Shown here: positions 3,745 through 33,343 of the stretch, one piece after another
How the letters are laid out: each line of letters begins with the position of its first letter
How positions within the stretch are numbered: position 1 is the first letter of the stretch
DNA from: Bilabrum cf. latius
Taxonomy: Eukaryota
NCBI GenBank assembly: GCA_965178125.1
Contig: OZ237767.1
Span: forward strand, 558,001-622,000
Length of the DNA: 64,000 nt
Direction: 5' to 3'
Notes under the pieces: model-generated
Told to the model about the DNA's origin: nothing
The model's input: the letters and a program-made list of their open reading frames with translations, nothing else
The model's database searches: none
Translations under genes and position numbers: made by a program

Positions 3745-5345
3745 TCATATAGCAGGGTTTCGGTTCTGGTACGGCAGCTGCGAGACGAGGTTCTTCTTGG
3801 CCTCGAGCGCATCCTGCCGTTCCTCGTGCAGCGCCACCACAGGAGGGGCTATCCCCAGCTGCTCCGCGGTCACAGGGACCTCGTTGTCTTCCTTCTCTTC
3901 AGGAACAGAGTCCAGATGACCCAGTCCCCCCGCACCTCCTTGCTCCCTGGCCCTGGCCCGGGCCGCCTTCTGCCTCTCGATCACGGCCTGCACGGACCGG
4001 CTGGAATGCACCGACCGAATACTGCCAGCCGCACTCATCACACTGTGTGCAATGGACTGGGTATCACCAGGCGCGCCCCCATCTGCCCCCGGTCCACGCA
4101 TGCCCCCGCTGCCACCTACCTGCGAGTCTCCGAACGGATTCGAACCACCCTGCGGCCTCCTCCTCCTCCTCCTGCGCCTCCTCCTCCTCCCACCCCCCAT
4201 GCCACCCTCGTGCCCATCCTTGGACTCCTCCCCTGCCCCTGCCCCCGCCCCATCTCCCTCCTCCTCCCAGTCCCCAGCCCACTCCCAGTCCCCTCCAGCA
4301 CCTCCATCTGCACCCGCACCCTCCTCCCCCTCGCCCTCGTATACGTAATCCTCCTCCCATTCCGCGGCTGCCTGCTCCTCCCTCCTCACCGCTGCCTCCA
4401 TCCGCCGCCGACCCTCCTGCTCCTCCCTTGCCAGCTCGGCGATCCGGCGCTTCACCGCCTCCAGTCCAGACCGCACCTCGACGTCGTCCATGAACTGGTC
4501 CATGTCCAGCGACTCGGCGAACGCGAGCAAATCGTCAGCTTCTTGTTCCTATGCGTCCGCCGCAGCCTCTTCCGACATGGCCCACGCAGGCTTGCCTCCT
4601 TTCGACTTGCCTTTTTTTCTGCGCCGCCGCCTTTCCTATTCCTCTCGCTCCTCCCGGATGCGCGCTTCCTCATCGCCCTTGCCATCGATTACAGCTTTGC
4701 GGAGCTCAGCCTGGGTCTTCGTGAACTTCTCCTGTTTCGCTCGCTCCTTCGCTTCTAGCTCGGCTTGCTCTGATAACAGCTGATCGCGCTATGCTTGCAA
4801 TTCCTTGAGCCATGCTTTGTACTTATCGTTCGCAGTTGGTTCGCGCGTCCTCTTAGTCTGCTTCGCAAGTTCTCTTGCTCGTTTCAAATGGGTGGACTGT
4901 CCGGTCGGGTGCACCGCCTCATCAGTGGTTCCTATCCTGAACTGCTTTGCTTTCCCCGAGCCACTGCCTCCGGCTGCTGCCCCAGCGGGTCCAGCAGATA
5001 CCTAACCCGAATCTGCGAGTACACTTGAGCAGCATGTCAGTCAGTATTGGTTAAATTCGACGTATCGTTTGCAGCCTCCACCAAAAGGTACCAAACAGCG
5101 GAACGACAAAAGTATGCACGATATAAAGAGATACAAGTACTCAAAGCTTTTTGTACACGAATCTCACCTGCTCCAGCGACAAAAGGCCTGTTGCATAGCA
5201 TAACACCTTTGTAGTTGCCGATGGAAGATTGTCCCAGATCCATTCCTGACGAACTCGGAGGCCCTCCGCTCTGGCCTGTTCCTATGCTGCTGCCACCTCC
5301 AGGCCTTTCAGACATCATAACTCCTCTAGCACCACCTAGTGCCAT
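3745..5345 (-). CDS. Conserved hypothetical coiled-coil protein; one intron (5013-5167) and in-frame TAG codons
   Basis: Exon 1 ends NYKGVMLCNRPFVAGAG|GTGAGA. Acceptor CGCAG at 5013 keeps phase. The frame continues through TAGs (e.g. 4789-4791) to KPAWAM..LLAFAESLDMDQFMDDVEV..LPYQNRNPAI-TGA. Confidence 0.65.
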
Positions 5346-5508
5346 TGGACCACCCAGGACACTGTAAATTGACTGACTGCAACCACAACGGAACTGTGTA
5401 ATAAGTATTCGTTACTCTCATTTAATACAGAATTGCAAGCCCAAACGAATCACTGTAAATATGAATTGAAGCAATCGCATGTACTGGTAGCACACGGTTC
5501 AACAGCTC

Positions 5509-8500
5509 TTACCGAATGACCCGGCGGCGGGTACGCCTGAATACCCTGCCAGCGGACCCTCCTGACGAAACGGCGCGACTGGCACTGGGAGCAGCAGCAT
5601 TGGCAGGAACTACCGGTGTGCCCCAGCTTGTATTGCCCCAAGCACCCCCATTGCTTGCACCTCCACCTGATCCTTCACGCGCCCCTCCTGCGCCTGTGCC
5701 CCACGATGGGGTCAGCGAGGAACCCCCGGCAGCAGCGGCAGGGGGGGGCTTGCCCAGGAGTAGCCGAGGGATCTGGCCTCGTCGGCCCGTGTTCCCTCGG
5801 CTGACCGCCATCGTGCCCTAAACTGGACCCACAAGCACGGTGGACTACTTGGCCCCTGTAGTGCCGGCACCAGCACTCCCCTGCCCAACCTCCTCCTTGG
5901 CTCCACTCGCCTACTTACCTTCCTCTTCCTTGGCTCCACTCGCCTGCTTGCCTTCCTCTTCCTTGGCCCCAATCGCCTGCTTGCCTTCCTCTTCCTTGGC
6001 CCCAATCGCCTGCTTGCCTTCCTCTTCCTTGGCCCCAATCGCCTGCTTGCCTTCCTCTTCCTTGGCCCCAATCGCCTGCTTGCCTTCCTCTTCCTTGGCC
6101 CCAATCGCCTGCTTGCCTTCCTCCTCCCGGGAGGCCCCCTCCCCGCCGGCCCACGCACGCACCTTCAGACTCACGGGTCGCCTCTCACCCGCCGCAAGCC
6201 AACCCATCCTGAGGCCTGACAGCGCCAGCACGGGCTCCTCAACTTTCTCGTCCCAGAACGGTGTCACGCAGGGATGGGTGCAGCGCACTGCGATGCAGTA
6301 CCACTCCCCTGCGAGCAGCACGGGCTATGCATCGGCAGGCAGCCTCAGAGCCAGCTCTCTGGCCCTCCCCTCGTCCAGCACCCTGCTGGTGGTGGCGTCG
6401 GCCATGCAGCTGCATGTCACCGATGACAGCGTGTCCCACGAGCTCCCGGGCTTATCGGCGAGCCCCTTGCTCCGCTTCTCCAACTCAGCTGTCTCGCGAT
6501 CGAGCTGTGTCTACAGCAGCTGCTGGCCTGGGACCACGACGATGTGTGCCCAGTGCCTGCCCGTCCACTGGGACTCAGCTCGACCCACTGATGGCGAGTT
6601 CCGCCCACTCTCGGGCTGGGCAATGCCACTTGCGCTGTCGTCTGCAGCGGATCCACCGGGCTAATTTGAGCTGGCCCTTTCTGATTCTTTGGACTCCTCT
6701 GCTCCTGCAGCAACTGGGACATCGCCAGGCTGCAGCGCGGCGGGGGCTGGTTCTAACTCTTCTCCGTGATGATGATCGTGACCCGCAGCTGACGAATCAC
6801 CTGTAATCACCGGGCACTCCCCTGGCCAGTACATGTGCACCCCACGGAGCACCTGTGCCTCGGTGCACTGCACTGCGATGCAGTCCCAGTCATCAGGCCC
6901 CACCACCCAGCCGTACGACAGGCACCGCATGCTCCTGCCCGCATGCAGATCTCGCGAGGCAGTGCTGTTCTGCCTCCCCAGGTCCATCCGTGCCCCGCCC
7001 ACCTCCATGGATGCCTGGAATCGAAACACTGTCTGCTTGTCTGGTGAGCGCTTGCCTACGTCGACATTGCCTTCAATGTCATGCCCGATATTCTCGACCT
7101 CGCACTCACCATCAGTGTCGCTGTCTGTGTCATCCTCCAATGGTCGATCGGAAAACGATCGCAACAACTTTGGGGGTTCAGCCAGCATTTTCGGAGGGCC
7201 ATCTCCAACAGGTTGGGTAGCCGCTCCATGACCTGTCTATGTCGAAGCCAGAGACGACGTCGCTCCCGATGCATCCTCAGTGGACTGTCCACCAGAGCCT
7301 GGCTCAGATCCAGGCACAGACGCCGCAGCTGCATCAGACCCAGAGCCAGGAGCAGGAGGAGTAGTCGATGTCCCCAGTCCCCACGGGTCAGCAGCCGATC
7401 CCGTCGCTCCCGATGCATCCTCAGTGGACTGTCCACCAGAGCCTGGCTCAGATCCAGGCACAGACGCCGCAGCTGCATCAGACCCAGAGGCGGGATCAGG
7501 AGCAGGAGCAGGAGGAGTAGTCGATGTCCCCAGTCCCCACGGGTCAGCAGCCGATCCCGTCGCTCCCGATGCATCCTCAGTGGACTGTCCACCAGAGCCT
7601 GGCTCAGATCCAGGCACAGACGCCGCAGCTGCATCAGACCCAGAGCCAGGATCAGGAGGAGTAGTCGATGTCCCCAGTCCCCACGGGTCAGCAGCCGATC
7701 CCGTCGCTCCCGATGCATCCTCAGTGGACTGTCCTCCAGAGCCTGGCTCAGATCCAGGCACAGACGCCGCAGCTGCATCAGACCCAGAGGCGGGATCAGG
7801 AGCAGGAGCAGGAGGAGTAGTCGATGTCCCCAGTCCCCACGGGTCAGCAGCCGATCCCGTCGCTCCCGATGCATCCTCAGTGGACTGTCCACCAGAGCCT
7901 GGCTCAGATCCAGGCACAGACGCCGCAGCTGCATCAGACCCAGAGCCAGGATCAGGAGGAGTAGTCGATGTCCCCAGTCCCCACGGGTCAGCAGCCGATC
8001 CCGTCGCTCCCGATGCATCCTCAGTGGACTGTCCACCAGAGCCTGGCTCAGATCCAGGCACAGACGCCGCAGCTGCATCAGACCCAGAGCCAGGAGCAGG
8101 AGCAGGAGCAGGAGGAGTAGTCGATGTCCCCAGTCCCCACGGGTCAGCGGCCGATCCCGTCGCTCCCGATGCATCCTCAGTGGACTGTCCTCCAGAGCCT
8201 GGCTCAGATCCAGGCACAGACGCCGCAGCTGCATCAGACCCAGAGGCGGGATCAGGAGCAGGAGCAGGAGGAGTAGTCGATGTCCCCAGTCCCCACAGGT
8301 CAGCAGCCGATCCCGTCGCTCCCGATGCATCCTCAGTGGACTGTCCTCCAGAGCCTGGCTCAGATCCAGGCACAGACGCCGCAGCTGCATCAGACCCAGA
8401 GCCAGGAGCAGGAGCAGGAGCAGGAGGAGTAGTCGATGTCCCCAGTCCCCACGGGTCAGCGGCCGATCCCGTCGCTCCCGATGCATCCTCAGTGGACTGT

Positions 8501-10122
8501 CTTCCAGAGCCTGGCTCAGATCCAGGCACAGACGCCGCAGCTGCATCAGACCCAGAGCCAGGAGCAGGAGCAGGAGCAGTAGTCGATGTCCCCAGTCCCC
8601 ACGGGTCAGCAGCCGATCCCGTCGCTCCCGATGCATCCTCAGTGGACTGTCTTCCAGAGCCTGGCTCAGATCCAGGCACAGACGCCGCAGCTGCATCAGA
8701 CCCAGAGGCGGGATCAGGAGCAGGAGCAGGAGGAGTAGTCGATGTCCCCAGTCCCCACGGGTCAGCAGCCGATCCCGTCGCTCCCGATGCATCCTCAGTG
8801 GACTGTCCACCAGAGCCTGGCTCAGATCCAGGCACAGACGCCGCTGCTGCATCAGACCCAGAGCCAGGAGCAGGAGCAGGAGGAGTAGTCGATGTCCCAA
8901 GTCCCCACGGGTCAGCGGCCGATCCCGTCGCTCCCGATGCATCCTCAGTGGACTGTCCACCAGAGCCTGGCTCAGATCCAGGCACAGACGCCGCAGCTGC
9001 ATCAGACCCAGAGGCGGGATCAGGAGCAGGAGCAGGAGGAGTAGTCGATGTCCCCAGTCCCCACGGGTCAGCAGCCGATCCCGTCGCTCCCGATGCATCC
9101 TCAGTGGACTGTCCACCAGCGCCTGGCTCAGATCCAGGCACAGACGCCGCAGCTGCATCAGACCCAGAGCCAGGAGCAGGAGCAGGAGCAGGAGGAGTAG
9201 TCGATGTCCCAAGTCCCCACGGGTCAGCGGCCGATCCCGTCGCTCCCGATGCATCCTCAGTGGACTGTCCACCAGAGCCTGGCTCAGATCCAGGCACAGA
9301 CGCCGCAGCTGCATCAGACCCAGAGGCGGGATCAGGAGCAGGAGCAGGAGGAGTAGTCGATGTCCCCAGTCCCCACGGGTCAGCAGCCGATCCCGTCGCT
9401 CCCGATGCATCCTCAGTGGACTGTCCACCAGAGCCTGGCTCAGATCCAGGCACAGACGCATCAGACCCAGAGGCAGGAGCAGGAGCAGGAGCAGGAGCAG
9501 TAGCCGATGTCCCCAGTCCCCACGGGTCAGCGGCCGATCCCGTCGCTCCCGATGCATCCTCAGTGGACTGTCCACCAGCGCCTGGCTCAGATCCAGGCAC
9601 AGACACCGCAGCTGCATCAGACCCAGAGGCAGGCGCAGGAGCAGGAGCAGGAGCAGTAGTCGATGTCACCAGTCCCCACGGGTCAGCGGCCGATCCCGTC
9701 GCTCCCGATGCATCCTCAGTGGACTGTCCACCAGCGCCTGGCTCAGATCCAGTCACAGACGCCGCAGCTGCATCAGACCCAGAGGCAGGAGCAGGGACAG
9801 GAGCAGGAGCAGGAGCAACGTCAGCAGCCGATGCCGAAGCAGGTCCAAGCATCGCGGCTGTGCTTCTGGGATCAATCTGAAGACCCTGTAATTCGTTAGC
9901 GCTAACCGCCTGGCTTAAAAGTGCGAGCGACACAAGCTACCATGGATTCGTAGGAAGCGATGATCCGCTTTCGTCCGCAATCGCAGCTATCGCAGGCAAT
10001 CGACGCCGGATTGCAGCGCGCAATACATCCATGGAATGATGCCCAGCCCGTGTCATCCTGGAGCTATGCGAGCTATCATCGAATGGCAATTCATCTTGTT
10101 CTTGTACATTAGACGCGTTCAT
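5509..10122 (-). CDS. Large repeat-containing protein with a PHR-like domain split by insertions (TAG read through)
   Basis: Track ORFs 9937-10131, 7237-9933, 6661-7188, 5911-6321 and 5509-5811 share one frame and are separated only by TAG. Segments GWVVGPDDWDCIAVQC..LRGVHMY, PVLLAGEWYCIAV and GQIPRLLL resemble a PHR domain. Ends are uncertain (possible introns). Confidence 0.55.
5890..6126. repeat. 33-bp coding tandem repeat (GAKEEEGKQAI), ~7 copies
   Basis: ttggccccaatcgcctgcttgccttcctcttcc repeated. One copy has TAG where the others have CAG. Confidence 0.9.
7258..9790. repeat. ~140-156-bp coding tandem repeat, ~17 copies (Ser/Gly/Ala/Pro-rich, ADPWGLG motif)
   Basis: Near-identical units differing in the number of ggagca hexamers; indels preserve the reading frame. 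Confidence 0.95.
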
Positions 10123-10429
10123 CTCTCCCAACTTACTGCGATTTGCATGAATTGACTATATCATCACCGATTGAGCGAGTGAGAATCAAGTTCAAAATAG
10201 CGTTCGCGATGCTTGCCATCGCCTGGACAAGATGTAGATATGGTATACTATTCTCACAAAACATGTACTTCCGGCGAAAGTCCACATACTGGCCCTACTT
10301 TGTTGGATCCTCCTTTTTCCCGGAACGTAGAAAAAAAGCACGACTTTTGCAGCACGCAACAAAGCACCGGCGGCCAGCGTTGCTGCAGCTCATTTGCGGG
10401 CCTCTGCTGGCGGTGCCTGCCACCAACCC

Positions 10430-13400
10430 ATGGCTGCGTTCCAGTTTATTGTTACAGTACCATTCTTTGCTCTTGTTCCGGTCGAATACACGAAGGATGA
10501 GGAAGAATCTGTGGTGGAAAAGGACGCCCTTGACCCTGCTGTGACAGGCTCGGCAACTCGCGAGATAGCGAGCTCCAGCACCTCTGCCCCGGAGGAGTCG
10601 AAGGAGCCCAGCGGCAGCAACGAAGGAATTGAAGATGAACCCGAGGTTGAGTACCTCGAAATGGTGCCTATGCTTCGGGATGCGATCGCACGGAGTGATC
10701 TTCTGCGGACACTTCCCGTGACCATCTTTGAGGATGAAGCGGCCGAAAAGGCTGTGGCATTGTTCCATGTGCTTGATGCACAGGACGCTGAATAGGCACT
10801 TAATGAATTGAGCATGTTCCTGGGAATAGGCAGCGATGAGCTGCCGCAATGCGGCACAGTGGCCTTGCTAACATTGTCGACTTTGAGACCCTCGAAAGAG
10901 AGCATGCTCGATGTGGTGGAGCGCGTTGAGCTGCTTTAGCCCTCTCTTGATGCTGTGTAGTCCAGCGCAACGACCGCTGCTGATTCCCCTGGTCGTTGGG
11001 AAGCTGCCATTGGCAACGTTGGTGTGGTCGCATCGCAATCTCCAAGCGACGACCCAGAAGCCGCAGAGAAACTGCGGCTCGCGGTGGAGCTGGGCCAAGC
11101 ACCGGCACCAACCGACGGCACGGGAACCCCTGCGCAGCTCGCCGCCGACATGGCTCCTTCTGTCCGCGAGGGCCCGCGAGGCGGAGGTGGCGGGCAGCCT
11201 GCTCCCACGGAGGGTCAAGGGGGGCCGCTGCCGGGTGCCACTGGCGGTGATGGCCAGGGAACAGAGGGGACGGAGGGGGGTAACACAGTCCCGATGGCGA
11301 GGGCCTTGCCTCCTTCCATTGAGGGGAGCATGGCTGACGGGACGGTGCTGACGCTGATGGACGCAGCCTCGACAGCGGGCCCGGCCGTTGGCAGGGGGGC
11401 AGGCGACACGGGGGCGACAGAGGGGGCGACAGAGGGGGAGAGGGAGAGGGAGAGGGGGGGGGGAGGGGGAGGGGCTGCTGGCTGCTGCCAGCCCCGGTAC
11501 TGATGCGATTCGGCGATCGCACTCTCTAGCGGCGCCGCGCAATGACGGAACCGATCCCCTGGGCCTGCCTCCTCGCCGCAGCGTCTCCAGCGCGCTACAA
11601 TCCGCTCTGGACGACGGACGGGCCAGCGGAACCGAGCCGCCACGCGCGGCGCCGGGGAGCGCCCCCTCGGTCCCGCCACCAATCCCACCCCTGGCAGACG
11701 CCACGACAGGAGCAGGCGCACTGCATGCAGGTGCAGCGCCACCCACCTAGGCCTCTGGGCGCGAAGCCCAGCTGGCCGATGCCGCGTCCAGAGTGACCGT
11801 GGAGGACGACGCGGGGGGCTTGCAGACCGGGTCCAGGGAACAGCTGCAGTCGAGGGAGAGCCGCGAGGAGGCCCGGGCCCGGGCCGCGGCCTCCCGTGGC
11901 CTCTCGCAGGCCTCCTCGTTCACGGGGTCGGCGGTGGCTGCGCACGGGGAGGGTGCGCAGGGCGGGGCGATGATTCCGGGGGGCAGCAGCAGCCTCGATG
12001 GGATGGGAGCAGGACTCAAAGCCCCCCGGCGAGTGACGGTTGCAACCACCAGGGACCTCGCCGAGAAGCTGGACCGGGCAGGCATGACCTCTGCAGCCGT
12101 GGAGGCAGCGCTGGAGTCGGCTCAGCAGCAGGGGACGGGCGGGGATGGGGATGTGGATGTGGATGGGGGGGAGGAGGGAGGGGCAGAGGCAGGAGGGGGA
12201 CCCCAGGACGGCGATGCAGTGAGTGCAGGGGTGGGCGCTGACTCGAAGCCGGGAGAGGAATCCAGTGCCGTTGCAAGCGCGGCTCATGTTTCGCTCGAGG
12301 ACGCGGAAGGCAGGCCCGCGGACGAGGGCATGGGCAAGGGACAGGGGTAGGGTGAGGGGCGCGCTGACAGCGGGGCAGTGGCGGGAGGCGTAAAGGCTGT
12401 CTCGTTCGGTGGAAGCAAGCTGCACTAGGTCAGGAGTACGGTGGTTGACCCCACGGTGGGGGAGGGCACCGGGGGGGAGGGCAAGCCCGGCCCGAACGCG
12501 GGCCCCGGCTCCCGTGCGATGGCATCCAAGAGCGCGGGTCAGCAGTAGCAGAGGAAAGCCGGCAACAACTTTGGGTTCAGCTCGAGGATCCTCGTGCACC
12601 AGCTGGTGGATCAGATCAGCGCGGGTGCGGCGCTGTCTTTCGACTACGTGTGCTTGGTGGTCATCGCCAGCATCCTCGCTGCCGTGGGGCTGGCCACGGA
12701 CAACGTGGTTGTGATCGTAGCCTCGATGTTGGTCTCGCCGATCATGGGTCCCATCCTCGCCGTGTGCTTTGGGACATTCGTGTTCGATTTCGGGCTCGTG
12801 TGCCAGGGCCTCGTCACGGAGGGCATGGGCCTGCTGCTCTGCGTGCTGACGGGATTCCTCTCTGGGCTCGTGTTCGGGCCCTTCGCGCAGGACCAGGACG
12901 GGCTGTTCGCGTGGCCCACGAGCGAGATGTCCAGCAGGGGGGAGCAGGCCGGTCTCTGGCTGGGCGTGGCCATCGCAGTACCCAGCGGGCTAGGGGTGGC
13001 GCTCAGTGTCATGGGGTCGAATACCTCCTCGCTGGTGGGCGTGGCGATCAGTGCCTCGCTGCTGCCGCCTCTAGTAAACGCGGGCATGATGTGGGCGCAT
13101 GCGCTGGGCGGGAAGTACTGGATCGACCTGGACGACGGGGGCAGGGGCTTCGATGTGTGGGACTACGTGCAGATGGGCGGCTTTTCCTTCGCTCTGACGA
13201 TGGTCAATATCGCCTGCATTCTCGTGACAGGCATCTTCATGTTCTGGTTTAAGGAGGCTGCGCCCTATCAGGGCAAGAGCCCCCTGTTCCGCAGTGGGGC
13301 AGAGGTGCGGCGCCGCGCGCTGGGCCGCTCCGAGCCCCAGGGGCCCACCCCCCAGATCGCCGCCCCCCAGGAGGGGGTCAGGGGCTCGGACAGGGGCAAG

Positions 13401-15011: not shown

Positions 15012-15310
15012 TTGCCAGTGGTGGCTTACTTTTTGTGTTGGTTGATTGGTTGCCTGTGCCAAGTGCTGGGGCTGTGTTGCTTCAGTGGTGGGGCCGGGCT
15101 AAAGGAGTGCGGGCTTGCTGAGCTCCTTATTATACCCCTCGATGACCGCTCACTGTTCGTTGCAATTGCAGTCTATGTTCAGACTCGGACAGTTTGCGAC
15201 CGCGGCGTGCCAGTGTGGTTGTGTGTGTCCGCAAGACTCATCACACATCGCGATCAACGGACCAAAAGGCAACATCCACTGCTGGGGGTGCACGATAGAT
15301 CCAAATAAGC

Positions 15311-18300: not shown

Positions 18301-21300
18301 GTTCCACCTGTTTGCCACCTGTCTCACCGTGCGGGAGGCACTGGAAGACGACGAGGTCGCTGCTGTCTACGGGGTGTCCGAGTTGGCCGTGGCGGGGGCG
18401 AGGGAGCGGTACCAGATGCAGGCCGGCATGCGGGGGCTGGACGATGACCTCAAGGAGGCCAGGGCCAGGGCGGGGGCGAGGGAGGAGGCGAGGGAGGGGG
18501 GGGTGCTTCCGGGGACGGGCATCCATGACCCCGCGGAGGGGTCATCACCGCAGTCGCAGCGGGGCTCGACAGCGCGACGCACGCACGGGCGGGGCCGCCG
18601 CCGCCCCCACGAGATCCTGGCCGAGGCATGCGAGAAGGACCCGCTGCTGCCACGGGCCCGGGTGGTGCTGGCCAGCGCGCTGCCGCCCAAGCCGGGCAAG
18701 GATCCGGGCGGAGTGGCCGCCACCGCGTGTTTCACGCACAGGCAGGTGGCTCTCATGGTGGAGCGGGCCAGGGAACAGCGAGGGGCCGGCGGGTCTAGGG
18801 CAGGCTCTCCCCTCGGCAAGGGGCCCAAGGGGATCTTCATACCGCCGAGGGACGACGGTGAGGCGGCCGAGGCGGCGCTGGCGGCCATCGAGCACGGGAC
18901 GGCGGGAATCGATGGAGTGGGGGGCGTGAAGATGACGATCGGGGGCAGCGGGGTGGGAGGGGGTTCGGAGGAGCAGCAGCGCGCCGCCCTGGCCGCTGAC
19001 CTGCGGTCCATGCACGGCCTCCCCCGCGTGCTCACCCTCGAGCAGGCCGCAAGAGCCGCGCGCGACCCCTTGCCGCCGCACATGGCCTTCGGGGCCGCCG
19101 CCGCGGCGGGCCTCAGCGGTGGGCAGCTGAAGGACGCGTTGTCCCGGGAGAGCTTGAGGCTGCTGGTGGCCGAGCTGGGGCTCCGGGACAGGGAACAAGG
19201 GCCCTCGCTGGAGGACGCCGTGGACTTCGTGCTGGTGCAGAGGGCGAGGCACGCCAGGGCAGTGCAGTCGGCTGCTGACGGGATGGGCAGCGCACTGCGG
19301 CGCGCGGCCCAGGCGCAGGAGGCTGCCGATGGCGCGCGGGGGGGATCGGGGTCCTCGCCTTCCTCTTCCTCTTCCTCCGAGTCGGCATCTGCCTCCGGGG
19401 TGAGGGGGCTGTTGCGGGCTGCAAGCAGGGCGGCCAAAAGGAGGGCAGCTGCTGCTGCTGCTGCTGCTGCCTCGTATGGTGCAGGGTCAGCAGGCAGGAT
19501 AAAGGGCCAGGCGGGGGCAGGTCGGCGTGGGAGTGCGGGGGGCCGGCGGCGGTCAATTAGTTCCCTGGGCTCGAGAGCTGGCAACCTGTCGGCCTAGGGG
19601 GCAGCTAGAGCGGGTAAGGGCAGCACCATGGGCGGGGCCGGCCTCGCGGGCGAGCTGGACGGAGAGGAGGATGAGGATGAGGTAGAGGACGAGTCCATGT
19701 TCGTGGGAGGCACGGTGACGCTGGGCGGAGTCGGTCAGGGGGAGGCTGCCAGAGACAAAGGGCTCGCGCAGCTGCGCAAGGTGGCTCAGACCGTCGACGT
19801 GCTGGACCGGGCGGCAGTTCTGGACGTGCTGTGCGTGTACTGCGCGGTGGCCGACGGGACAGCCGTGGTGCAGCAGGCGGAGGCCGCGGGGGACGTGGTG
19901 CGGTACAGCGTGGGGCTGCGGGCGGGGGGCACCCCGGCGGTTCTGCACGCTGCCGTTGTGCAGCACGGGCTAGCTCGTGTGCCGCACGAGGTGACCGATG
20001 CGTACGGAGCGGGGCCCAGCGACGCGGTGGACTGTCTCGCGCACAGGCACCAGTGGTTTGGGGCCGTGCGGCGGTGCGAGCTGCTGCCCGAGGTGTCATC
20101 TTCCCGCTGGCCCGAGTGGTCGGATCGTGCGGTGCTGGCCGAGACCAGGCAGTCACACGCAGGTGCGGCAGCAAGGGCGATCGCCAGGCGGGCTCGTGCC
20201 GAGAGGGCGCGCTGGCGGCGGGAAGACGAGGATCGGTCGGGGAACAACGGGTCGGGGAACAAGGGAGGCACAGAAGGGCCAAGGCCCGTGCCGGAGCTAG
20301 CGCGGCAGCCCACTGCTGATGCACGGGAGGCCAGCGAGCTGCGGCTTGGTGTGATGAGTGCGAGCGTCACCAAAGGTAAGACTGCGACCATGGGAGCCGG
20401 TGGGGCTTCCTCATCCGGGCCTTCGTCTCCCCTGGCTCCGGGTGCTGAGAACCGAGGATCCGGCACCGGCACCGGCACCAGCACCAGCACCAGCACCGGC
20501 ACTGGCACCAGCGCGGGCTGGGAACCCTCTGCTCTGTCCCTTCTGCGGGCCACGCTGCACCACGGTGCCCGCCCCCGCGCAGAAGCCCTGTTCGCAAGCC
20601 CGTCCCCAGCCCGCGCTGCGCTCTTCCAGGACCCCAGGGCCTTTCGCAGAGACTTGACCCCGCACGTGCCCGCGCTGCTGCGGCTGTTCCTGGCCTACTG
20701 CGAGCCGGTTGCAACCGGCACGGGGGAGGAGCACCGCTCTCTCCTGTTCCCCGAGGCGACTGTTCCCTCGGGTCCGGCTATTCGAGCCCTGGAGGGGGCG
20801 CGTTAGGGCGTGCTTGCGGCGGGTGGGACACCGCCCCCCGATGCATGGCGAGGCCGCATGGCCTCCAACGGTATCGGCGGTGGCGGTGACTTCCCGTTGC
20901 ATGTAGGGCCTGAGGTAGGGCGACGGGGCTCCGGGGGCAGTCATCTATCCGGGACGGGCCCTTCTTCTTCTTCCTCCTCCTCCTCCTCTCGGGGGGGTGT
21001 CTCCGGAGGCAGTGGAGCGGGAGCAGGAGGGGGCGGGTCGACCCACGCGGGGTCCGGGCCGGACCACCTGGTGGCAGGGCGGCTGTGGATGGGGCACGAA
21101 GCCATGGCCCGCGCCCTGGGCCTCCCGGCCGAGACATCCACCCGGAAGCACAATCCCGAGCCAGTGGGGGTCGTGGCTCTGCCAGTAGTGCGTTTCCTGG
21201 AGCACGAGGAAGTCAGAGCAGCGGAGCGGGCGCAGGAGGCCGAGGCGGAGGCAAGGAGGAGGAGGAGGAGGCAAACGCAGGATATAAAGGTGGGTGCCGG

Positions 21301-23797
21301 CGGGCCATTGCAGGGAACGGCAGCAGGGGGCCAGGCCAGCCCTTCAATCGGCGGCGAGGACCAGACGGGCCCGGCCGTGGCATCGACGTCCGGCTCCAGC
21401 AGCAGCCGCAGCGCGGGCGCAAGCAGCAGCAGAAGTGCCGGCAGCGGGAAAGGCGGGCCCCGCACTAACACTGGGAGCCGGACCCCAGGGAGCCGAGGGA
21501 GCCGGGGGAGGGCACGCCCCCGGGGAGGACTGGCGCCCAAGGTGCCCAGGAGGGACCTTCTCCTGCTCGTGAGGCTGTGCAGGGAGCGCCCGGGCGTGCC
21601 TGCGCTCGGGGGACAGCTGCCCCCCGGGTATCCTCCCGCTCCCGGTCCCCGGGGCACCGGCAGACTCCTGTGCTCCGGGGTCTCGGTGGAGGGGCTGGCA
21701 CTGTGCGCTGCCTCTTTGGGACTGGCTGCACACGTGCGCGGCTCCCTCCCTCTGCTGGACCTGCCGGCGCACCTGGAGGATATTGCCAGGGGGCACGGCT
21801 CGCCCGAGGACGGGGGTCGAGGTGGGGATAGGGAAGGTTCGCCGAGCCTCAGCGAACCGTCGCCTCGACAAGGCAGGGGTGCAGGCGGGAAGGCAGGCAC
21901 CACGCGCGCCCCTTCCCATTCCGCCTCCCCGTCTGACGTGGTGGTGCTCCCCGATCCTTACGACGACCCGGTACCCGCGCGCCCCGTTGGCCGGTGGGAA
22001 GTAGCGTGCGCTTTCTTTCTATCTCAGTTCCACGACGAGAGCACCGCCGGGCAGACCGCCGTGCGCCGGGTGCTGGCACAGGCCCAGGCAGACGCCACCG
22101 TGGCGGCCCTGAGAGGCTCCAAGCCGCCCCACGGGGCCATCGGGTATCCCACCACGGTGCAGGCGCACTCGCTCCTGAGGTTCCGCAGCAGGGGCGCCGC
22201 GCTATCCGACGTGATCAACGTGCCAACCACCTCCAAGCAACCGGGGCAGGCACCAGCCGGCACGTCTGGGCCAGGGATCGGGCCACAGGGCCCAGGAGGA
22301 GGGGGGGAAGCAGCAGGGGCTGTGGGTGGGGGTCAGGGGGCGGCTGGGCTAGCGGCGGAGGCTCGGCGCCGCGCAGCCGAGGAGGAAGCAGCCGTCCTGG
22401 TTCCGCTGGACAGGCGCGGCGGCGCCCCCGGCTTATTTCGCGGGGGGTTTCCTCTGTTTTCTGTTGTTCCCTGGGGCTCTGGGGCGGCCATAGGGACCCT
22501 CTCCGGGGAACAAAGGCGCTTGTTGGCGGCTCTGCACGCGATCGCCAACTGGGGAGGAGCTAGGGGAACAAGGGGTAGAGGCGCGGGGGCATGGGGCGGC
22601 ACGGGAGCGGCAGCAGAGGCCGCGGCGGCTCGGATGGCGCTGCTGCAGCAGCCGCCGTCTCCCCGGTCGCCCTCGAGACAGGTCCCGGATGGCGGGGGTG
22701 TGACGAGTGATGAAGCCTCTACCACCGCTGGCGCCATCGAAGCAGCCCGGGGGCTGCCGGGAGCGTCGTCCTCACCGTCACCCCCTGCCTCATCCTCATC
22801 GGTGTCGCGGCGGCGAGGCGGCCGGGACTCATCGCTGGCCTGGGACCGGGACTACCGCTCCGGATCCGTGTCATCGATCCTGCTGATGGCTGCGCGAGCT
22901 GCGGGAGAGGCCGCCGAGGTCCTCGCGAAGCAGGCAGAGCGGGAGGCAATGGAGGGGGCGGGGGGCAGGTCAGGAGCGGTGCGCTGGGAACTGAGTGGAC
23001 CGAGCGAGCCTGCGCCTCGGTCGAACAGTGCCAGCGCCCGACGCGCGGGTCTGAAGCCACTCGTCACATCCACATCGCCTGCAGGCGAGGCAACTGGTTC
23101 CGCTGGCCGCGTGCTAGCAGCCAGGGGCGTGCTGGCCCCACCCCCGCCCCCGCCTCCGCCACTGCATGCTGGTTAGGGCTAGGCCCAAGCAAGCAACAGG
23201 CAAGGGGCGGATCCGGGCACTGCTGGGCTGCTCCACCGTCTCAAGGCCTTTGCAGCTGCCCCTCGGGGGGAGGGCGGGGCCTCCGGCGGGGAACAGGACG
23301 GAGACTCGGGGCTAGAGACATCGGGGGAGGACCAGGGGCAGGGGCAGGGGCAGGGGCAGGGGCAGGGGAAGGGGCAGCGGTCCCTCCGACTCAGGCCGCC
23401 CCTGCCGCTGTCCCAGTCGGAGGAGCGGCGACTGTGTGACGAGTGCAGGGAGCTGCTGCTCTGTCGCGCGCATCGCCGGCTGACGTTCCTCCAGTTCGTC
23501 GAGGCGCTGTGGCGGGTGGGTCGCGCGCGGTGGAGCTGGGCAGGCGGGGTGAGCGACTCGGAGGTGCAGGCGAGGTGGACGGACGCGGCAGTCGTGGGGC
23601 TCTCTGCGCTGGGGAGCAGGCAGGCCCACGGGTTACTGGCAAGGGTGGCGGGGGCGAGGCAACTGGGGGGGTGGTGCGGGCTGGGGCCGGACGCGGGGGG
23701 GGCCGGGGTCGCGGGGCAGGATGCTGCCGTGAGGGGGTTCTATTCTAGATGCGGCGGGCTGGGCATTCTCCCAGTCGTGTATCGTGAGGAGGACTAA
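15311..23797 (+). CDS. Very large (~2830 aa) low-complexity hypothetical protein (TAG read through)
   Basis: ORFs 15311, 17024, 18248, 19628, 20810 and 23516 share one frame, separated only by TAG, ending TAA at 23797. Ordered-looking ends: VGDGNQTVRWLATAA at the N-terminus, LTFLQFVEALWRV near the C-terminus. Confidence 0.7.
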
Positions 23798-24105
23798 GCT
23801 GAGCACTCCAAACGCTACAACTGATGTGAGATTCAAAGATCACCAGCCCAGGCCACAGCAATGACTAGATACTTTCCTGTGCAAAGTGAAGGAAATTACG
23901 ACAATATTGAGCACACCGTGTATCCGCAACGCGCCGAACTAAGTCACAACGAGTAGTGCATGTTGCAACAAGACACGGCCGGATCAGAGGGAGATTGTGC
24001 CTGGATCGGTCGGTCGCACGCTGCCCGCGGCAGCTGCGGTGGGTGGAGAGAGAAGAAAAAAGAAAATCAGAGGGAGAAGGAAAAAAGCTCACTCAGGGAA
24101 TCCGG

Positions 24106-25404
24106 ATGCGCCCGCCGGCATCATTGGCCACCCGCACCTCCTGTGCCCTCGGCCACCCACCCACCCCCGCTACCTGGCTTCCGGTGGATGCTGGATGTGC
24201 GCCTGTCCCAGTCCCAAGCCACCGTTCAAAGCGATCCAGAACCGAAGCAACGGCACCCCGAGGCCAAGAACGAGGCGATCAAAACAATCAAGTGCCCGAG
24301 CCTTCGAGCCCCGCAAAGAAACGCCCTCATTAGGACGAGCCGCGCAGCTACCTAGAGGAGGCTGCCGCGCTCAGTCAAGACCCCACGGCAATCGACTTCG
24401 AGGACATTGATCCCAACGACGAAGCAGAGGACGAATATGACGTCGACCTTGCCGCAGCACGACAAGTGCAAGCCTTGCACGTAGCTGGGAACATTGCAGT
24501 GGCTGGTGACCTGCCGCAGAGAGTCGACCTGGAGAACAGCACGGCTATCGGCAACGCGGAATTCAGGCCATACAACTGCACCGATGCGAACGCAAAGCTG
24601 CTGGCACTGCTTCATGAGCCTGCAAGATAGTCCACCGCAGTGACTGGAATGCTTGCTGAAGTCATCATCCTGAATGCGGTGGCCAGTGCCGACCCCGAGG
24701 GTGACCACCGCGCGACCATGGACAAGCTCAGCATCCTCACTCTCCGGAAGGCCTTCAACCTAGGGAAATCGGCCTCGCAAGCTGCAGGGTGGTCCGATGA
24801 GCACACCGAGCTGGAGTACAAGGTGTATCCTGCCAGCGTAGCGCAGATCGCAGCGCTCGGAGCCTCCCCTGCCGCCTGCGGGGACGACATCTCCAGCATC
24901 CCTCTCGCGGTGCCCCACGCGTCCGGTGTGGCAGCCTGCCTCGAGGTGCACGAGAAGTTCCTACCGATCGATGGCATCGGCACAAAAATGCAAAGGCTGC
25001 ACGAGACCGCGAGGCTGGTAGGGGGCGCAAAAGAGCACTCCACGACTTTTGTGCTTGCGCACTGCGCGCACATTGCAGACGAAGAAATGCTCGAAGATGC
25101 AGTCACGGAGCACTTTGGGTCCGGATCAACCGCATGCTCTGCCCCACGAGGTGCCTATGAAGTCTACAGCGCGGCCGCCACGCGCTTCCCGACAGCTGGG
25201 GGCCGCGCGGACCCCGGCGCCAGCCCGCCCCTAACCATCAAGGATGCGTTGACTCGCGAGCCGTTTACGGAGGTCTCTGAGGAAGAGTACCAAACGGCGA
25301 GGAAGGATGCGCTGCAAATATTTGCGTCCGTGCTCGAGAGGCACACGGACGTGATCAGCGACCACGGAATCCTGACTGCTTCCGCAGAATCGGGAAAGGG
25401 CGCT

Positions 25405-25444
<40 letters not shown>

Positions 25445-27753
25445 AAGTTCTCGCCGCAGCTGGAGATGCCAGCGAAGAGGATGAAGAAGAGGACGCAGAC
25501 ACCGAATGCATGCCGCTCTGGATGCGAGCCGGTCGAATGGATGCTGCCTTGGCTAGGCTGATCGACGAGAGCGGCGTCTCGACGAGGGTCACTGCGGTCG
25601 AGCCCACGAGGGGCGATGGCGAGCCCCACGCCTACAGCATGCCGGGCGAGTCCTCATGGGAAGAGTGCGCCAGCATCTTTGCAGACTAGGCCAGGCACCT
25701 CGTACAGGCCGTGGATATCGATGAGGCAGCCTATACGTACATTCTCCGTGCTGTCAAGATCGCGCTAGAGCAGCTTGCGCAAGGCAACGGTGCCAGCCCC
25801 TTCGAGTCGGTGAGTCAACTGCGCCCCACAACTGCCGTCATACTCTCGATGCGATCCTCGACAAGGAATGCTTGCACGCCCAGAAACGCACCAGAAGACC
25901 CCATGCGCAATTGCACAGGCTGGGGCCAAGCGGGTGGTCCGACCTATAGGATGGACGGAATCCACCGCACGGTACATTCTCGTGCCGTCCGTCAGGGACA
26001 GCACCGCACGGTACATTCTCGTTCCGTCCGTCAGGGACAGCACCGCACGGTACATTCTCGTTCCGTCCGTCAGGGACAGCACCGCACGTCCGAGCATCCC
26101 TGCCCCAGCTTCACAACTGCTCACAACTGCCCACCACTGCCCGCACCCGCACCGCAGGCTTCGTACGTTGGCTACGCCATCTCGTTCACTCGCATCTTCC
26201 GCGACCACCTCATCACCATGGTGAAGGCAAGGATGGAAGGCATCGGCTCCATCATTAGCAAGCACGGCAAGGGACTGGTGCGCCGCATGCAGGAGAAGGG
26301 CTTCGATCCTGCAAACTGCGAGGTCTACGCTGGCCTATTCCGGCTGGCGTGCACCGTGTCCGAGCAGCTGCAGGCCGTGAGACTCCAGCCCGAGGACGAC
26401 GCGCACAAGCAGCTGCTTCGCATGGGCGTCACGTGGTCCGGCCCCGACGGAGCCTCCGCCGCTGGCAGGGCGCTCGTGGCCATGCAGCGGGCGCGGGTCG
26501 AGGTCGACGGCGCGTCGACGGGCGAGTGCCTTGCCTTTGCTGCCGACTGCGTCGAGGACCAGCGAGCGAGCGCTCTCAGCCTCGAGAGCATCCTCATCTT
26601 CAGCAGCACGCCACTCTTCAACGCCTTGGCGCTGGCAACCTGCGCGCTGTCGCGCGTGCAGATGAGCGAGCGCAGGGCAGCCAGGCTGGCCGGGTGCCGG
26701 CTTCCTGCAGGGGCCGCCCTCCTGCCGTACGAAGCCGCCATCCGCGCCGCGATGCAGAAACAGGCCGCATTCATCCGCTGGATGGAAGGGAATCACGTAA
26801 AAGCCATGGACATCGTCAGGGCGCTCGAGGCCTCGTCCCCAAGCGGCCGCTCTCCGCTGGGCATCTACGGAGTGATGCACGTGCAGAGAGGACGGACCGT
26901 GAGCGGGCCTGCCATCCACACCCTCTACGCCCTGTCCCAGTCCGCGGCCGGCGAGAAGCTCGCTCGGATCACGGCCGCCAAGCACGTCGGCGACCCGGAC
27001 GCGCGCCGCGCGCGGGAGCGGCTGATCGAGCTCATGCCGACGATCGAGCGCAAGCGCCTCGCAGAGCTCGTCGTCCGCCACACCCCAGGACGCAGCGACA
27101 AAGAAGGGTATCAAAAGCAGGTGCTGAAGTCCATGAACAAGCTGACGACCAGCTACAACGGCGACGTCTAGGGCACCGGCTCGCTGCTGCGCGACATCGT
27201 CGACTTCATGCTCCGCACCCAGCCAGACCACCCGCGCGCCATCCCGGCGGACGAACTTAAGCCCTGGTTCAGCAGCGAGCGGGCGTGGCGCACGGGCATG
27301 AGCAGGCACGGCCTGCACAACGACCACGCCCAGCAGCGGCTCGCCAAGGTCTACCTGGTCCTCATGGAGCAGCTCTTCGCCCAGCCGCACGTGGCCGGCC
27401 ACCTGAGGCGCGGCGCGACCCTCAAGAGCCAGTGGTTCAACAAGGACAAAGGACACCTCGACAAGTCCAAGTACATCTACCACGACATGGCCAGGCTCGT
27501 GCACAGCGACGCCTACTGGGACGCCTTCGCCCAGACCTCGATGGTCAGGAGGATCGTCCCCGGGCTCCACGTCCAGGCACGACTCCGCAAGCTCCGCCAC
27601 ACGGGCAAGCAATGGTTCCCGCTGGTCCAGGACCTTCCTACAGTGTTATTCTCGCACCCGTTCAAGCACTTGGAGGGGCTGCAGCCGGACGGCGGAGCAG
27701 GCGAAGCTCCAGGCGCTGCCACCGGAGGAGCGGCTCGCGGAGCCGGCCAGTGA
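24106..27753 (+). CDS. Orphan ~1100-1200 aa protein (4 in-frame TAGs; probable in-frame intron 25810-26157)
   Basis: ORFs 23956, 24640, 25711 and 27208 share one frame joined by TAG, ending TGA. A 348-nt GTGAGT...CCGCAG segment contains a 39-bp repeat. The start codon is uncertain. Confidence 0.65.
25963..26088. repeat. 39-bp tandem repeat x3, inside the putative intron
   Basis: caccgcacggtacattctcgttccgtccgtcagggacag at 25963 (one mismatch), 26002 and 26041. Confidence 0.9.
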
Positions 27754-31326: not shown

Positions 31327-31348
31327 TTTATTTTTAAATTGTTATAGA

Positions 31349-31367
31349 GCGTTTAAATTGACTTAAA
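31349..31367 (+). promoter_or_regulatory. Virophage promoter-like motif, consensus GCGTTTAAAATGACTTAAA (representative copy)
   Basis: Related copies end 28-31 nt upstream of the ATGs at 31396, 32505, 45900, 46332, 47751(-), 48267, 51588(-) and 54424(-). Partial copies precede 45027 and 47844. Confidence 0.75.
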
Positions 31368-31395
31368 AAATATATTTATTATAGGTATATACAGA

Positions 31396-32415: not shown

Positions 32416-32504
32416 TAGAATTTTAATAATATTAATGATTATTTAATATTATAGTGTGAGTTTAAAAAGGCTTAAATAATATATTTATTATAGGTATATA
32501 CAGA

Positions 32505-33302: not shown

Positions 33303-33343
33303 GTTTTATTATAATAATTATTTTATTTTTAATTATTATAGAT

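What the first reader, a model, noticed from the sequence alone, without database searches (positions are those of the whole stretch)
3745..27753. Host nuclear genes also read TAG as sense (Gln) while TAA stays a stop
Seen: five long host genes here, plus 60984-64000, are chains of same-frame ORFs joined only at TAG. TAG sits inside Gln runs: CAG CAG TAG CAG (12540-12551), CAG TAG CAG TAG CAG (17993-18007) and TAG CAG CAG CAG (minus, 63462-63473). It also replaces CAG in one unit of the GKQA coding repeat (5911). Genes end at TGA (15011, 27753) or TAA (23797). Known: UAG-only reassignment is reported in only a few protists (e.g. Iotanema, Gln). Inference: the GC-rich, intron-poor style with an AT-rich provirophage recalls Cafeteria-like flagellates, so this could be an independent code change in that kind of lineage. 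The host cannot be identified from this window.
Basis: partly seen in the sequence, partly recalled or inferred. Interest (0 to 1): 0.85.

Follow-up and report, generated by a model that had tools for sequence, protein, structure and literature searches.

The report
TAG read as glutamine in host
A GC-rich protist genome, apparently related to the flagellate Cafeteria, and the virophage integrated in it both use the stop codon TAG as an ordinary glutamine codon while TAA and TGA still end genes, a rare kind of genetic-code change.

Summary
All coordinates check. With TAG read as sense, 3745-27753 becomes five non-overlapping frames of 431-2883 codons covering 92% of it. Standard-code ORFs there reach only 947 codons; control readings with TGA or TAA as sense reach 1190 and 971. 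Six host frames hold 39 in-frame TAG and no internal TGA or TAA, against about 89 TGA and 11 TAA expected from their other frames. All seven host genes end at TGA (5) or TAA (2).

Gln is the best reading. TAG replaces CAG in 1 of 7 GKQA repeat units and sits inside Gln runs. In the integrated virophage's primase-helicase, TAG falls on a Gln invariant in 146 of 146 homologues. That element has 105 TAG against 21 CAG, and 0 of 76 related viral contigs show TAG-only interruptions.

The host glutaminyl-tRNA synthetase (GlnRS) is sister to a clade containing Cafeteria.

Untested: tRNA-Gln(CUA), eRF1, mRNA and protein. No genome or RNA run was available.

This is a new lineage with a known code variant. 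No paper reporting it was found.

The parts
3745..5040 (-). Host frame G (431 codons, coiled-coil-like, Glu/Arg-rich). It has 4 in-frame TAG (win 5004, 4791, 4638, 4551) and ends at TGA. There is no ATG before codon 155.
5509..10185 (-). Host frame A (1558 codons) with long coding tandem repeats. It has 9 in-frame TAG and ends at TAA 5509-5511, followed by a 46% GC spacer.
5889..6127 (-). 33-nt coding repeat (EEEGKQAIGAK, 7 units). The Gln codon is CAG in 6 units and TAG in unit 7 (5911-5913).
11358..15011 (+). Host frame B (1217 codons), a membrane protein with a DUF389 domain (residues 457-623, E 5e-30). It has 6 in-frame TAG, including CAG CAG TAG CAG at 12540-12551, and ends at TGA.
15146..23797 (+). 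Host frame C (2883 codons, low-complexity, no Pfam family). It has 10 in-frame TAG, including CAG TAG CAG TAG CAG at 17993-18007 and GGT TAG GGC TAG at 23171-23182. It ends at TAA.
23911..27753 (+). Host frame D (1280 codons, no Pfam family). It has 4 in-frame TAG and ends at TGA.
60984..63998 (-). Host frame E (1004 codons, runs off the window, weak EGF-like match). It has 6 in-frame TAG, including TAG CAG CAG CAG at 63462-63473 and TAG TAG at 61263-61268. It ends at TGA.
1075..3597 (-). Host glutaminyl-tRNA synthetase, one open frame of 840 codons. It has 20 Gln codons (19 CAG, 1 CAA), no TAG, and ends at TGA. It was used for placing the host, and it is the enzyme that would have to charge a tRNA-Gln(CUA).
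30902..57749 (.). Integrated AT-rich virophage-like element with terminal inverted repeats (30902-31326 / 57329-57749) and a CAGCC target duplication. Its 25 ORFs hold 105 in-frame TAG, and all end at TAA (19) or TGA (6).
51647..54424 (-). Element primase-helicase (925 codons, 20 TAG). The TAG codons at 53105-53107 (codon 440), 52703-52705 (574) and 52694-52696 (577) align with Gln of homologues. Codon 577 is Gln in 146 of 146.

Best explanation
The organism is a GC-rich eukaryote whose GlnRS is nearest to the Cafeteria clade. It translates UAG as glutamine in its nuclear genes and keeps UAA and UGA as terminators. This is the same table as NCBI code 15 and the Iotanema spirale code.

Shown here:
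- TAG occurs at background frequency inside long, TGA/TAA-free coding frames.
- Genes end only at TGA or TAA.
- TAG exchanges with CAG in a repeat unit.
- In the resident virophage TAG sits at conserved Gln positions.

Inferred from the known logic of such codes (PMC5304391, section 9):
- Decoding is by a tRNA-Gln with anticodon CUA, one mutation from CUG. It cannot pair with UAA, which is why UAA can remain a stop.
- It is charged by the GlnRS encoded at 1075-3597.
- An eRF1 has lost efficient recognition of UAG but not of UAA or UGA.

The virophage has evolved under this code. It prefers TAG to CAG about 5 to 1, as AT pressure would favour.
For: - Frame lengths and controls: 2883, 1558, 1280 and 1217 codons with TAG sense, against a maximum of 947 under the standard code, 1190 with TGA sense and 971 with TAA sense.
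- In-frame TAG is 39 against about 39 expected from off-frames. Internal TGA is 0 against about 89, and internal TAA is 0 against about 11.
- 7 of 7 host genes end at TGA or TAA. The sequence after the TAA of gene A turns to 46% GC with 5 stops in frame.
- Frame B contains a genuine DUF389 domain (E 5e-30).
- GKQA repeat: CAG in 6 units, TAG in 1.
- TAG lies inside Gln or Gly-Gln runs at 12546, 17996, 18002, 63473, 12348, 23174 and 23180. Gln neighbours number 7 of 78 against 3.0 expected, P = 0.035.
- Element primase-helicase: TAG 577 is Gln in 146 of 146 homologues and TAG 440 is Gln in 82 of 149. Summed log-odds are Gln +8.5 against the next best, Lys, at -2.8. Mean Gln frequency is 0.136 at TAG columns, 0.203 at CAA/CAG columns and 0.047 or less for every other class.
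- Homology continues past the last TAG (codon 906) to residue 924.
- Element codon counts are TAG 105, CAA 188 and CAG 21.
- The same DNA, with 0 differing letters, stands in contigs of runs from three other studies. 12 of the 20 TAG sites in 10200-28200 lie in listed pieces of run X5.
Against: - No suppressor tRNA is in the window. The only tRNA is Cys-GCA.
- No whole genome is held, so tRNA-Gln(CUA), absence of tRNA(UUA) and eRF1 could not be examined.
- No RNA run was listed, so retention of TAG in mRNA is not shown.
- The only two well-conserved host sequences, GlnRS and the DUF389 domain, contain no TAG. Gln identity in host genes therefore rests on one repeat unit, sequence context (P = 0.035) and the virophage.
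- That no gene ends at TAG follows partly from how the frames were drawn.
- 5 of the 39 TAG lie upstream of the first ATG of their frame.
Confidence: 0.8

Rival explanations
1. TAG has a dual meaning. It is read through as Gln inside genes but still terminates some genes, depending on context or on competition between eRF1 and a suppressor or near-cognate tRNA-Gln. This resembles the ambiguous codes of Condylostoma, karyorelict ciliates and Blastocrithidia.
For: TAG makes up only 11% of Gln-type codons in host frames (39 of 356). It is absent from the conserved GlnRS gene (0 of 20 Gln codons; P = 0.10 by chance), as expected for a less efficient codon. Whether any gene ends at TAG cannot be judged from stop-to-stop frames.
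Against: - 32 of 32 ORFs examined reach a TGA or TAA.
- In the primase-helicase, homology runs on beyond every one of the 20 TAG, including the one 19 codons from the end.
- In the virophage TAG outnumbers CAG 105 to 21, which is hard to reconcile with inefficient read-through.
Confidence: 0.1
2. TAG is a sense codon in the host but stands for an amino acid other than Gln. Leu and Ser are known for UAG in other lineages, and Glu or Lys are possible.
For: No host TAG lies at a position conserved among homologues. Many TAG columns of the virophage protein are variable, with Asp, Glu or Lys commonest.
Against: - Invariant Gln at codon 577, and Gln in the nearest homologues at codons 440 and 574.
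- Log-odds favour Gln by more than 11 units over any other residue.
- The CAG/TAG alternation in the GKQA repeat and the Gln-run contexts.
- The CAG deficit in the element is made up by TAG.
Confidence: 0.04
3. The code is standard, and the TAG are artefacts: sequencing or assembly errors, pseudogenes, tiny in-frame introns, or antisense 'shadow' frames of GC-rich genes.
For: GC-rich DNA gives long open frames on both strands. The frame antisense to GlnRS, for example, is open for 788 codons. Two frames lack an early ATG, so some introns may exist.
Against: - The interruptions are TAG only. Pseudogenes, errors or introns would bring TGA and TAA as well, with about 89 and 11 expected.
- All frames on the opposite strand of gene C hold 16-28 TGA.
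- One TAG lies in an otherwise near-identical copy of a 33-nt coding repeat.
- Contigs from other studies carry the same letters.
- The same pattern occurs in 23 of 25 ORFs of an element of quite different composition.
Confidence: 0.03

Closest known systems
Iotanema spirale (Fornicata) nuclear code: UAG = Gln, UAA and UGA stops (Panek et al. 2017, PMC5304391; abstract and section 9 read)
   Same: The same reassignment, with UAA kept as a stop. The same predicted mechanism: tRNA-Gln(CUA) derived from CUG, plus an altered eRF1.
   Different: An unrelated lineage: the host GlnRS groups with the Cafeteria clade. The genome here is 60-72% GC. The evidence here is genomic DNA, whereas for Iotanema it was a transcriptome. 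The eRF1 substitution T32G reported for Iotanema could not be checked here.
Phyllopharyngean ciliates Hartmannula sinica and Trochilia petrani, and Protocruzia tuzeti: UAG = Gln with UAA as the preferred stop (McGowan et al. 2024, PMC11687900; abstract and discussion read)
   Same: UAG alone is reassigned to Gln, and UAA is fixed as a terminator.
   Different: Those are ciliates with 27-54% GC, in which 87-98% of genes end at UAA. Here TGA ends 5 of 7 host genes, and the host is not a ciliate by GlnRS affinity.
Streblomastix strix and its endogenous viral elements (Bellas et al. 2023, PMC10120064; passages read)
   Same: Integrated viral elements use the host's non-standard table, which the authors read as a sign of long association.
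   Different: In S. strix both UAA and UAG are Gln. Here only UAG is, and the element is a virophage with a Sputnik-type penton.
Cafeteria burkhardae with its endogenous mavirus-like virophages
   Same: A GC-rich host, AT-rich integrated virophages with an rve integrase, terminal inverted repeats and a short target duplication. Cafeteria is the nearest named GlnRS.
   Different: As far as I recall, Cafeteria and mavirus are annotated with the standard code. Host GlnRS identity is only 49%.
TAG-to-Gln recoded crAss-like and other gut phages (code 15; PMC9523058, start of abstract seen in a search listing)
   Same: A virus with TAG = Gln.
   Different: There the virus alone is recoded and its bacterial host uses the standard code. 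Here the host genes carry TAG too.

Membership tests
Nuclear code with UAG = Gln and UAA/UGA = stop (Iotanema type; same table as NCBI 15) | Many in-frame UAG inside genuine protein-coding frames of several genes | tested here: met
   39 TAG in six host frames (34 downstream of the first ATG). Frames are 431-2883 codons long. One frame holds a DUF389 domain.
Nuclear code with UAG = Gln and UAA/UGA = stop (Iotanema type; same table as NCBI 15) | UAG falls where homologues have conserved Gln (genes translated in this cell) | tested here: met
   Virophage primase-helicase: Gln in 146 of 146 homologues at codon 577 and in 82 of 149 at codon 440. Log-odds are Gln +8.5 against Lys -2.8.
Nuclear code with UAG = Gln and UAA/UGA = stop (Iotanema type; same table as NCBI 15) | UAG falls at conserved Gln positions in host nuclear genes themselves | tested here: inconclusive
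   Only paralogous evidence is available: 1 repeat unit with TAG against 6 with CAG, and Gln-run context, P = 0.035. GlnRS and the DUF389 domain hold no TAG. The search for orthologues of gene C found nothing.
Nuclear code with UAG = Gln and UAA/UGA = stop (Iotanema type; same table as NCBI 15) | UAA and UGA still terminate and are absent inside genes | tested here: met
   Host stops are TGA 5 and TAA 2; element stops are TAA 19 and TGA 6. Reading TAA as sense does not lengthen frames (971 against 947 codons). The spacer after the TAA of gene A is non-coding in composition.
Nuclear code with UAG = Gln and UAA/UGA = stop (Iotanema type; same table as NCBI 15) | UAG is not used as a terminator | tested here: inconclusive
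   0 of 32 ORFs end at TAG, but frames were drawn reading through TAG. Homology past the last TAG is shown for one protein only.
Nuclear code with UAG = Gln and UAA/UGA = stop (Iotanema type; same table as NCBI 15) | Cognate tRNA-Gln(CUA) present and no tRNA(UUA) | not testable with these tools
   The only tRNA in the window is Cys-GCA. No genome is held.
Nuclear code with UAG = Gln and UAA/UGA = stop (Iotanema type; same table as NCBI 15) | eRF1 N-domain altered (GTS, NIKS, YxCxxxF motifs) | not testable with these tools
   eRF1 is not in the window, and no genome is held.
Nuclear code with UAG = Gln and UAA/UGA = stop (Iotanema type; same table as NCBI 15) | UAG retained in mature mRNA and Gln found in the peptide | not testable with these tools
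   No RNA holder was listed among 8 runs. The runs that were laid are contigs that also cover spacers.
Host belongs to Bicosoecida / Cafeteria relatives (stramenopiles) | Phylogenetic placement by 18S rRNA or many genes | tested here: inconclusive
   There is no rRNA in the window. In the single-gene GlnRS tree of 38 rows, host + P0008 + P0009 are sister to a 5-row clade holding Cafeteria, with SH-aLRT 97. The only other named rows were green plants and algae, one rhizarian and one heterolobosean.
Integrated virophage (Sputnik/mavirus kind) | Virophage capsid module (major capsid protein and penton) | tested here: met
   The penton matches Pfam V18-19 at 29.2 bits (cut-off 27). The major capsid protein only touches MCP_V20_C, at 17.2 bits and below the cut-off of 27.
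Integrated virophage (Sputnik/mavirus kind) | rve integrase, terminal inverted repeats, target-site duplication | tested here: met
   rve at E 5.8e-11. TIRs of about 425 nt, 99-100% complementary. CAGCC is duplicated at both junctions within a 121-nt satellite.

The most novel reading that the evidence does not exclude
This is the first nuclear genetic-code change in stramenopiles. A Cafeteria-related, 60-72% GC flagellate lineage reassigned UAG alone to Gln, and its virophage has been rewritten to depend on the new code, with TAG five times commoner than CAG. By implication the giant virus that the virophage parasitises would depend on it too. Meanwhile 0 of 76 related environmental virophage contigs use TAG in frame. 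The code change would then act as a barrier that confines a whole virus / virophage / host triad. The GC-rich setting would also argue against AT-driven 'codon capture' as the route.
Probability: 0.45. Interest if true: 0.85.

Novelty: new member of a known kind. Interest (0 to 1): 0.7.

Why it matters
UAG-only reassignments show that the cytoplasmic apparatus can tell UAG from UAA. According to the papers read, only a handful are known:
- Iotanema, three ciliate lineages and this kind of code for Gln;
- a rhizarian and some ciliates for Leu;
- Scotinosphaera for Ser.

A case in a GC-rich genome related to a culturable model flagellate, Cafeteria, would offer several things:
- a new independent origin;
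- a comparison pair (recoded against standard relatives) for finding the eRF1 and GlnRS changes that matter;
- a natural system in which an integrated virophage has co-adapted to the host code, which bears on whether code changes restrict virus host range.

It also has a practical consequence. Standard-code gene callers cut these genes into pieces, as the 107-residue database fragment P0277 ending just before TAG 228 illustrates. The proteome of this lineage is therefore mis-annotated in public collections.

Tried and rejected
- Whole genome: none is held. Genome-wide code inference, a tRNA-Gln(CUA) search and eRF1 inspection were therefore impossible.
- RNA evidence: no RNA holder was listed among the 8 runs. 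The 4 runs laid are contigs that also cover spacers, so they say nothing about transcripts or splicing.
- Virophage major capsid protein: no match in viral contigs by patterns, in the phage collection, or in the 5.8-billion-protein word search. It could not be used for inferring the codon's meaning.
- Host gene C, search of shorter proteins for orthologous fragments: nothing scored, probably because low-complexity words swamped the candidates.
- Metagenome scan with GlnRS: 8 loci, all only 36-45% identical. No close relative was available for codon-by-codon comparison.
- DUF285 repeat proteins of the element: their TAG do not fall on the conserved FNQPL Gln, so they are uninformative.
- ARAGORN with introns allowed and a lowered threshold: 28 calls, all but the Cys gene implausible, with introns of up to 2725 nt. 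A 'Pyl (cta)' call with a 316-nt intron at 62079-62474 was rejected as noise.
- Antisense shadow frames, pseudogenes, introns and errors were considered and rejected (see rival explanations).
- Papers: six searches listed no report of a stramenopile, or any GC-rich flagellate, with UAG as a sense codon. Supplementary files were not consulted. Subscription journals are not in the library.
Full report
**Layout of the window.** GC is 58-72% in 1-30900 and 57750-64000, and 28-37% in most of 31000-55500.
- The AT-rich block is an integrated virophage-like element bounded by inverted repeats at 30902-31326 and 57329-57749.
- It sits inside a 121-nt satellite array (28539-30901 and 57841-60778), with CAGCC duplicated at the two junctions.
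- It encodes an rve integrase, a Sputnik-type penton (Pfam V18-19, 29.2 bits against a cut-off of 27), a capsid protein that only weakly touches MCP_V20_C, a Prim-Pol/PriCT primase-helicase and two DUF285 repeat proteins.
- The finding concerns the GC-rich DNA on either side of it.

**The observation.** Under the standard code the GC-rich part is a mosaic of same-frame ORFs. With TAG read as a sense codon it resolves into long frames:
- G, 3745-5040 (-), 431 codons, 4 TAG
- A, 5509-10185 (-), 1558 codons, 9 TAG
- B, 11358-15011 (+), 1217 codons, 6 TAG
- C, 15146-23797 (+), 2883 codons, 10 TAG
- D, 23911-27753 (+), 1280 codons, 4 TAG
- E, 60984-63998 (-), 1004 codons, 6 TAG, running off the window

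The first five cover 92% of 3745-27753 without overlap.

**Is it more than chance?**
- In frame C the other five frames hold 16-33 TGA and 3-6 TAA each. The reading frame holds none before its terminal TAA, yet holds 10 TAG against 9-19 in the other frames.
- Summed over the six frames, off-frame means predict about 89 TGA, 11 TAA and 39 TAG. The observed in-frame values are 0, 0 and 39.
- Stop-to-stop frames exclude TGA and TAA by construction, so the proper statistic is length. The longest frame in 3745-27753 is 947 codons under the standard code and 2883 with TAG sense. It is only 1190 with TGA sense and 971 with TAA sense.
- GC-rich genomes give long antisense 'shadow' frames; the frame opposite GlnRS is open for 788 codons. 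Here, however, all opposite-strand frames of C carry 16-28 TGA, and frame B contains a real DUF389 domain (E 5e-30).
- Directly after the TAA that ends A, GC falls to 46% and the same frame meets 2 TAA and 3 TGA within 470 nt. This is what a true terminator followed by a spacer looks like.
- All seven host genes end at TGA (B, D, E, F, G) or TAA (A, C).
- Caveat: 5 of the 39 TAG (B aa131, C aa51, G aa13, 84, 135) lie before the first in-frame ATG. The conservative count is therefore 34. Frames G and B may have upstream exons.

**Are the letters right?** Eight public runs from four coded studies hold the stretch. Four were laid on 10200-28200. Listed contig pieces from three studies other than the probable source have 0 differing letters, and the table of differing letters has no entry at any TAG site. 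12 of the 20 TAG sites in that stretch lie in listed pieces of run X5. These runs appear to be DNA. No RNA holder was listed, so nothing can be said about mRNA.

**Which amino acid? Evidence within host genes.**
- (a) The 33-nt repeat at 5889-6127 codes EEEGKQAIGAK seven times. The Gln codon is CAG in six units and TAG in the seventh, in otherwise near-identical DNA.
- (b) TAG lies in Gln or Gly-Gln runs: QQ-TAG-Q at 12546, EQ-TAG-Q-TAG-Q at 17996 and 18002, P-TAG-QQQ at 63473, GQG-TAG-G at 12348, and G-TAG-G-TAG-AQ at 23174 and 23180.
- (c) 7 of 78 codons next to a TAG are CAG or CAA, against 3.0 expected for random positions (P = 0.035). This is modest support.
- TAG is one transition away from CAG, the dominant Gln codon. 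Host counts are CAG 268, CAA 49 and TAG 39 of 8379 codons.
- The conserved GlnRS gene (840 codons, 20 Gln codons) has no TAG, which is not significant (P = 0.10).

**Which amino acid? Independent evidence from the virophage.** The element must be translated in the same cell.
- Its 25 ORFs hold 105 in-frame TAG, and all end at TAA (19) or TGA (6). Gln-type codons are CAA 188, TAG 105 and CAG 21. The CAA:CAG ratio is 9:1, whereas GAA:GAG and AAA:AAG are about 2.5:1, so TAG appears to have taken the place of CAG under AT pressure.
- The primase-helicase (51647-54424, 20 TAG) has 3972 homologues at E ≤ 0.001 among 1.84 billion representatives.
- In an alignment with the 149 best homologues, TAG 577 is Gln in 146 of 146 occupied rows and TAG 440 is Gln in 82 of 149. 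TAG 574 is Gln in 8 of the 14 nearest homologues printed.
- Summed log-odds over TAG columns give Gln +8.5, Lys -2.8 and all others lower.
- Mean Gln frequency is 0.136 at TAG columns and 0.203 at the query's CAA/CAG columns. It is 0.047 or less for every other residue class. A 10-row alignment confirms Q577 as invariant and Q440 and Q574 as nearly invariant.
- Many other TAG columns are variable, with Asp, Glu or Lys commonest. Genuine Gln columns behave the same way: their own-residue frequency is 0.20, the lowest but two.
- Homology continues to residue 924, beyond the last TAG at codon 906.
- A 107-residue database protein (P0277, 99% identical) matches residues 121-227 and stops just before TAG 228. 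This shows how standard-code gene callers fragment these genes.
- Of 76 related viral contigs fetched from IMG/VR, 73 have no in-frame stop across the matched gene, 2 have a single TAA, and 1 (L084) has all three kinds, which indicates a frame-broken match. None shows TAG-only interruptions. The element's use of TAG is therefore peculiar to this host association.

**Who is the host?**
- The gene at 1075-3597 (-) is a eukaryote-type glutaminyl-tRNA synthetase in a single exon.
- Its best matches are unnamed, at 97% and 78% identity. The nearest named one is Cafeteria, in the cluster of P0014, at 49% identity.
- In a 38-row maximum-likelihood tree, host + P0008 + P0009 are sister to a five-row clade containing Cafeteria (SH-aLRT 97).
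- This is one gene with thin named sampling, and there is no rRNA in the window. 'Cafeteria-related stramenopile' is therefore likely but not established.
- The architecture matches what I recall of Cafeteria burkhardae and its endogenous mavirus-like elements: a GC-rich compact genome and an AT-rich virophage with rve integrase, TIRs and a 5-nt target duplication. That paper was not read here.

**Mechanism.**
- Shown: TAG is tolerated and conserved as a Gln-like sense codon, and TAA and TGA terminate.
- Inferred, following section 9 of PMC5304391: a tRNA-Gln with anticodon CUA, one mutation from CUG, decodes UAG and cannot pair with UAA, so UAA can stay a stop.
- Inferred: eRF1 must have lost efficient UAG recognition. 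In Iotanema a T32G change in the GTS motif was proposed.
- Inferred: GlnRS, which uses the anticodon as an identity element, must accept CUA.
- None of these parts is in the window except GlnRS. Its sequence differs from residues that are at least 93% conserved among 118 other homologues at eight positions. This is a lead only.

**Comparison with what is known.**
- UAG = Gln with UAA as a stop is reported for Iotanema spirale (PMC5304391). It is also reported for Hartmannula sinica, Trochilia petrani and Protocruzia tuzeti (PMC11687900, discussion read).
- UAG = Leu is reported for a rhizarian and some ciliates, and UAG = Ser for Scotinosphaera.
- Viral elements sharing a host's deviant code are reported for Streblomastix strix (PMC10120064).
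- Six literature searches listed no report for stramenopiles or for a GC-rich flagellate.
- The code itself is therefore known. The lineage, the GC-rich setting and the co-adapted virophage are new as far as these searches reach.

**Verdict.** Confidence is 0.8 for 'UAG = Gln, UAA/UGA = stop in the nuclear code of this organism'. The main residual doubts are a dual meaning of TAG and the missing tRNA, eRF1 and RNA evidence.

Noticed in passing
30902-57749: A complete-looking integrated virophage of 26.8 kb, with roughly 425-nt TIRs and a CAGCC target duplication, inserted in a 121-nt satellite. It uses TAG as a sense codon in 23 of 25 ORFs (105 TAG against 21 CAG). 0 of 76 related IMG/VR contigs show TAG-only interruptions in the primase-helicase gene.
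   Followed up: yes
43044-44933: The putative major capsid protein (629 aa, 8 TAG) found no homologue in three searches (viral contigs patterns, the phage collection, the 5.8-billion-protein word search). It only touches Pfam MCP_V20_C below the cut-off, so it is a very divergent capsid.
   Followed up: partly
1075-3597: The host GlnRS lies next to the recoded genes. It differs at eight positions where at least 93% of 118 other homologues agree: Y328F, L406M, E419A, R488K, L597T, A656V, A667G and N776D. All eight are shared with P0008 and six with P0009. Whether any bears on accepting a CUA anticodon is unknown.
   Followed up: partly
55600-57300: A segment of about 50% GC lies inside the element, between the last AT-rich gene and the right TIR. 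It has ORFs 55619-56338 (+) and 56522-56983 (-) that were not searched against any family. It may be cargo or a second insertion.
   Followed up: no
31083-31200, 41679-41879, 46934-47157, 54630-54754, 57415-57573: A 45-118-nt sequence recurs in inverted orientation (73-96% complementary) in intergenic spots of the element and in its TIRs. It may be a shared regulatory or terminator module, or a small mobile insert.
   Followed up: no
3745-5040 and 11358-15011: Frames G and B stay open, and G looks coding, for 154 and 204 codons before their first ATG. This suggests upstream exons or introns, or non-ATG starts. 'Intron-poor' is shown only for GlnRS.
   Followed up: no
7258-9809: Gene A carries about 16 copies of a 156-nt (52-residue) coding repeat rich in Pro, Ala, Ser and Gly, organised in 300-nt super-units. 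All frames are open there.
   Followed up: no
60765-60837: A tRNA-Cys(GCA) gene overlaps the last 14 nt of the satellite array (which ends at 60778) and lies 147 nt from the 3' end of gene E. It is the only tRNA in the window.
   Followed up: partly
53741-53743 (codon 228 of 51647-54424): Database protein P0277 (107 aa, 99% identical) equals residues 121-227 of the primase-helicase and ends just before this TAG. A near-identical copy elsewhere in public data was evidently cut there by a standard-code gene caller.
   Followed up: partly
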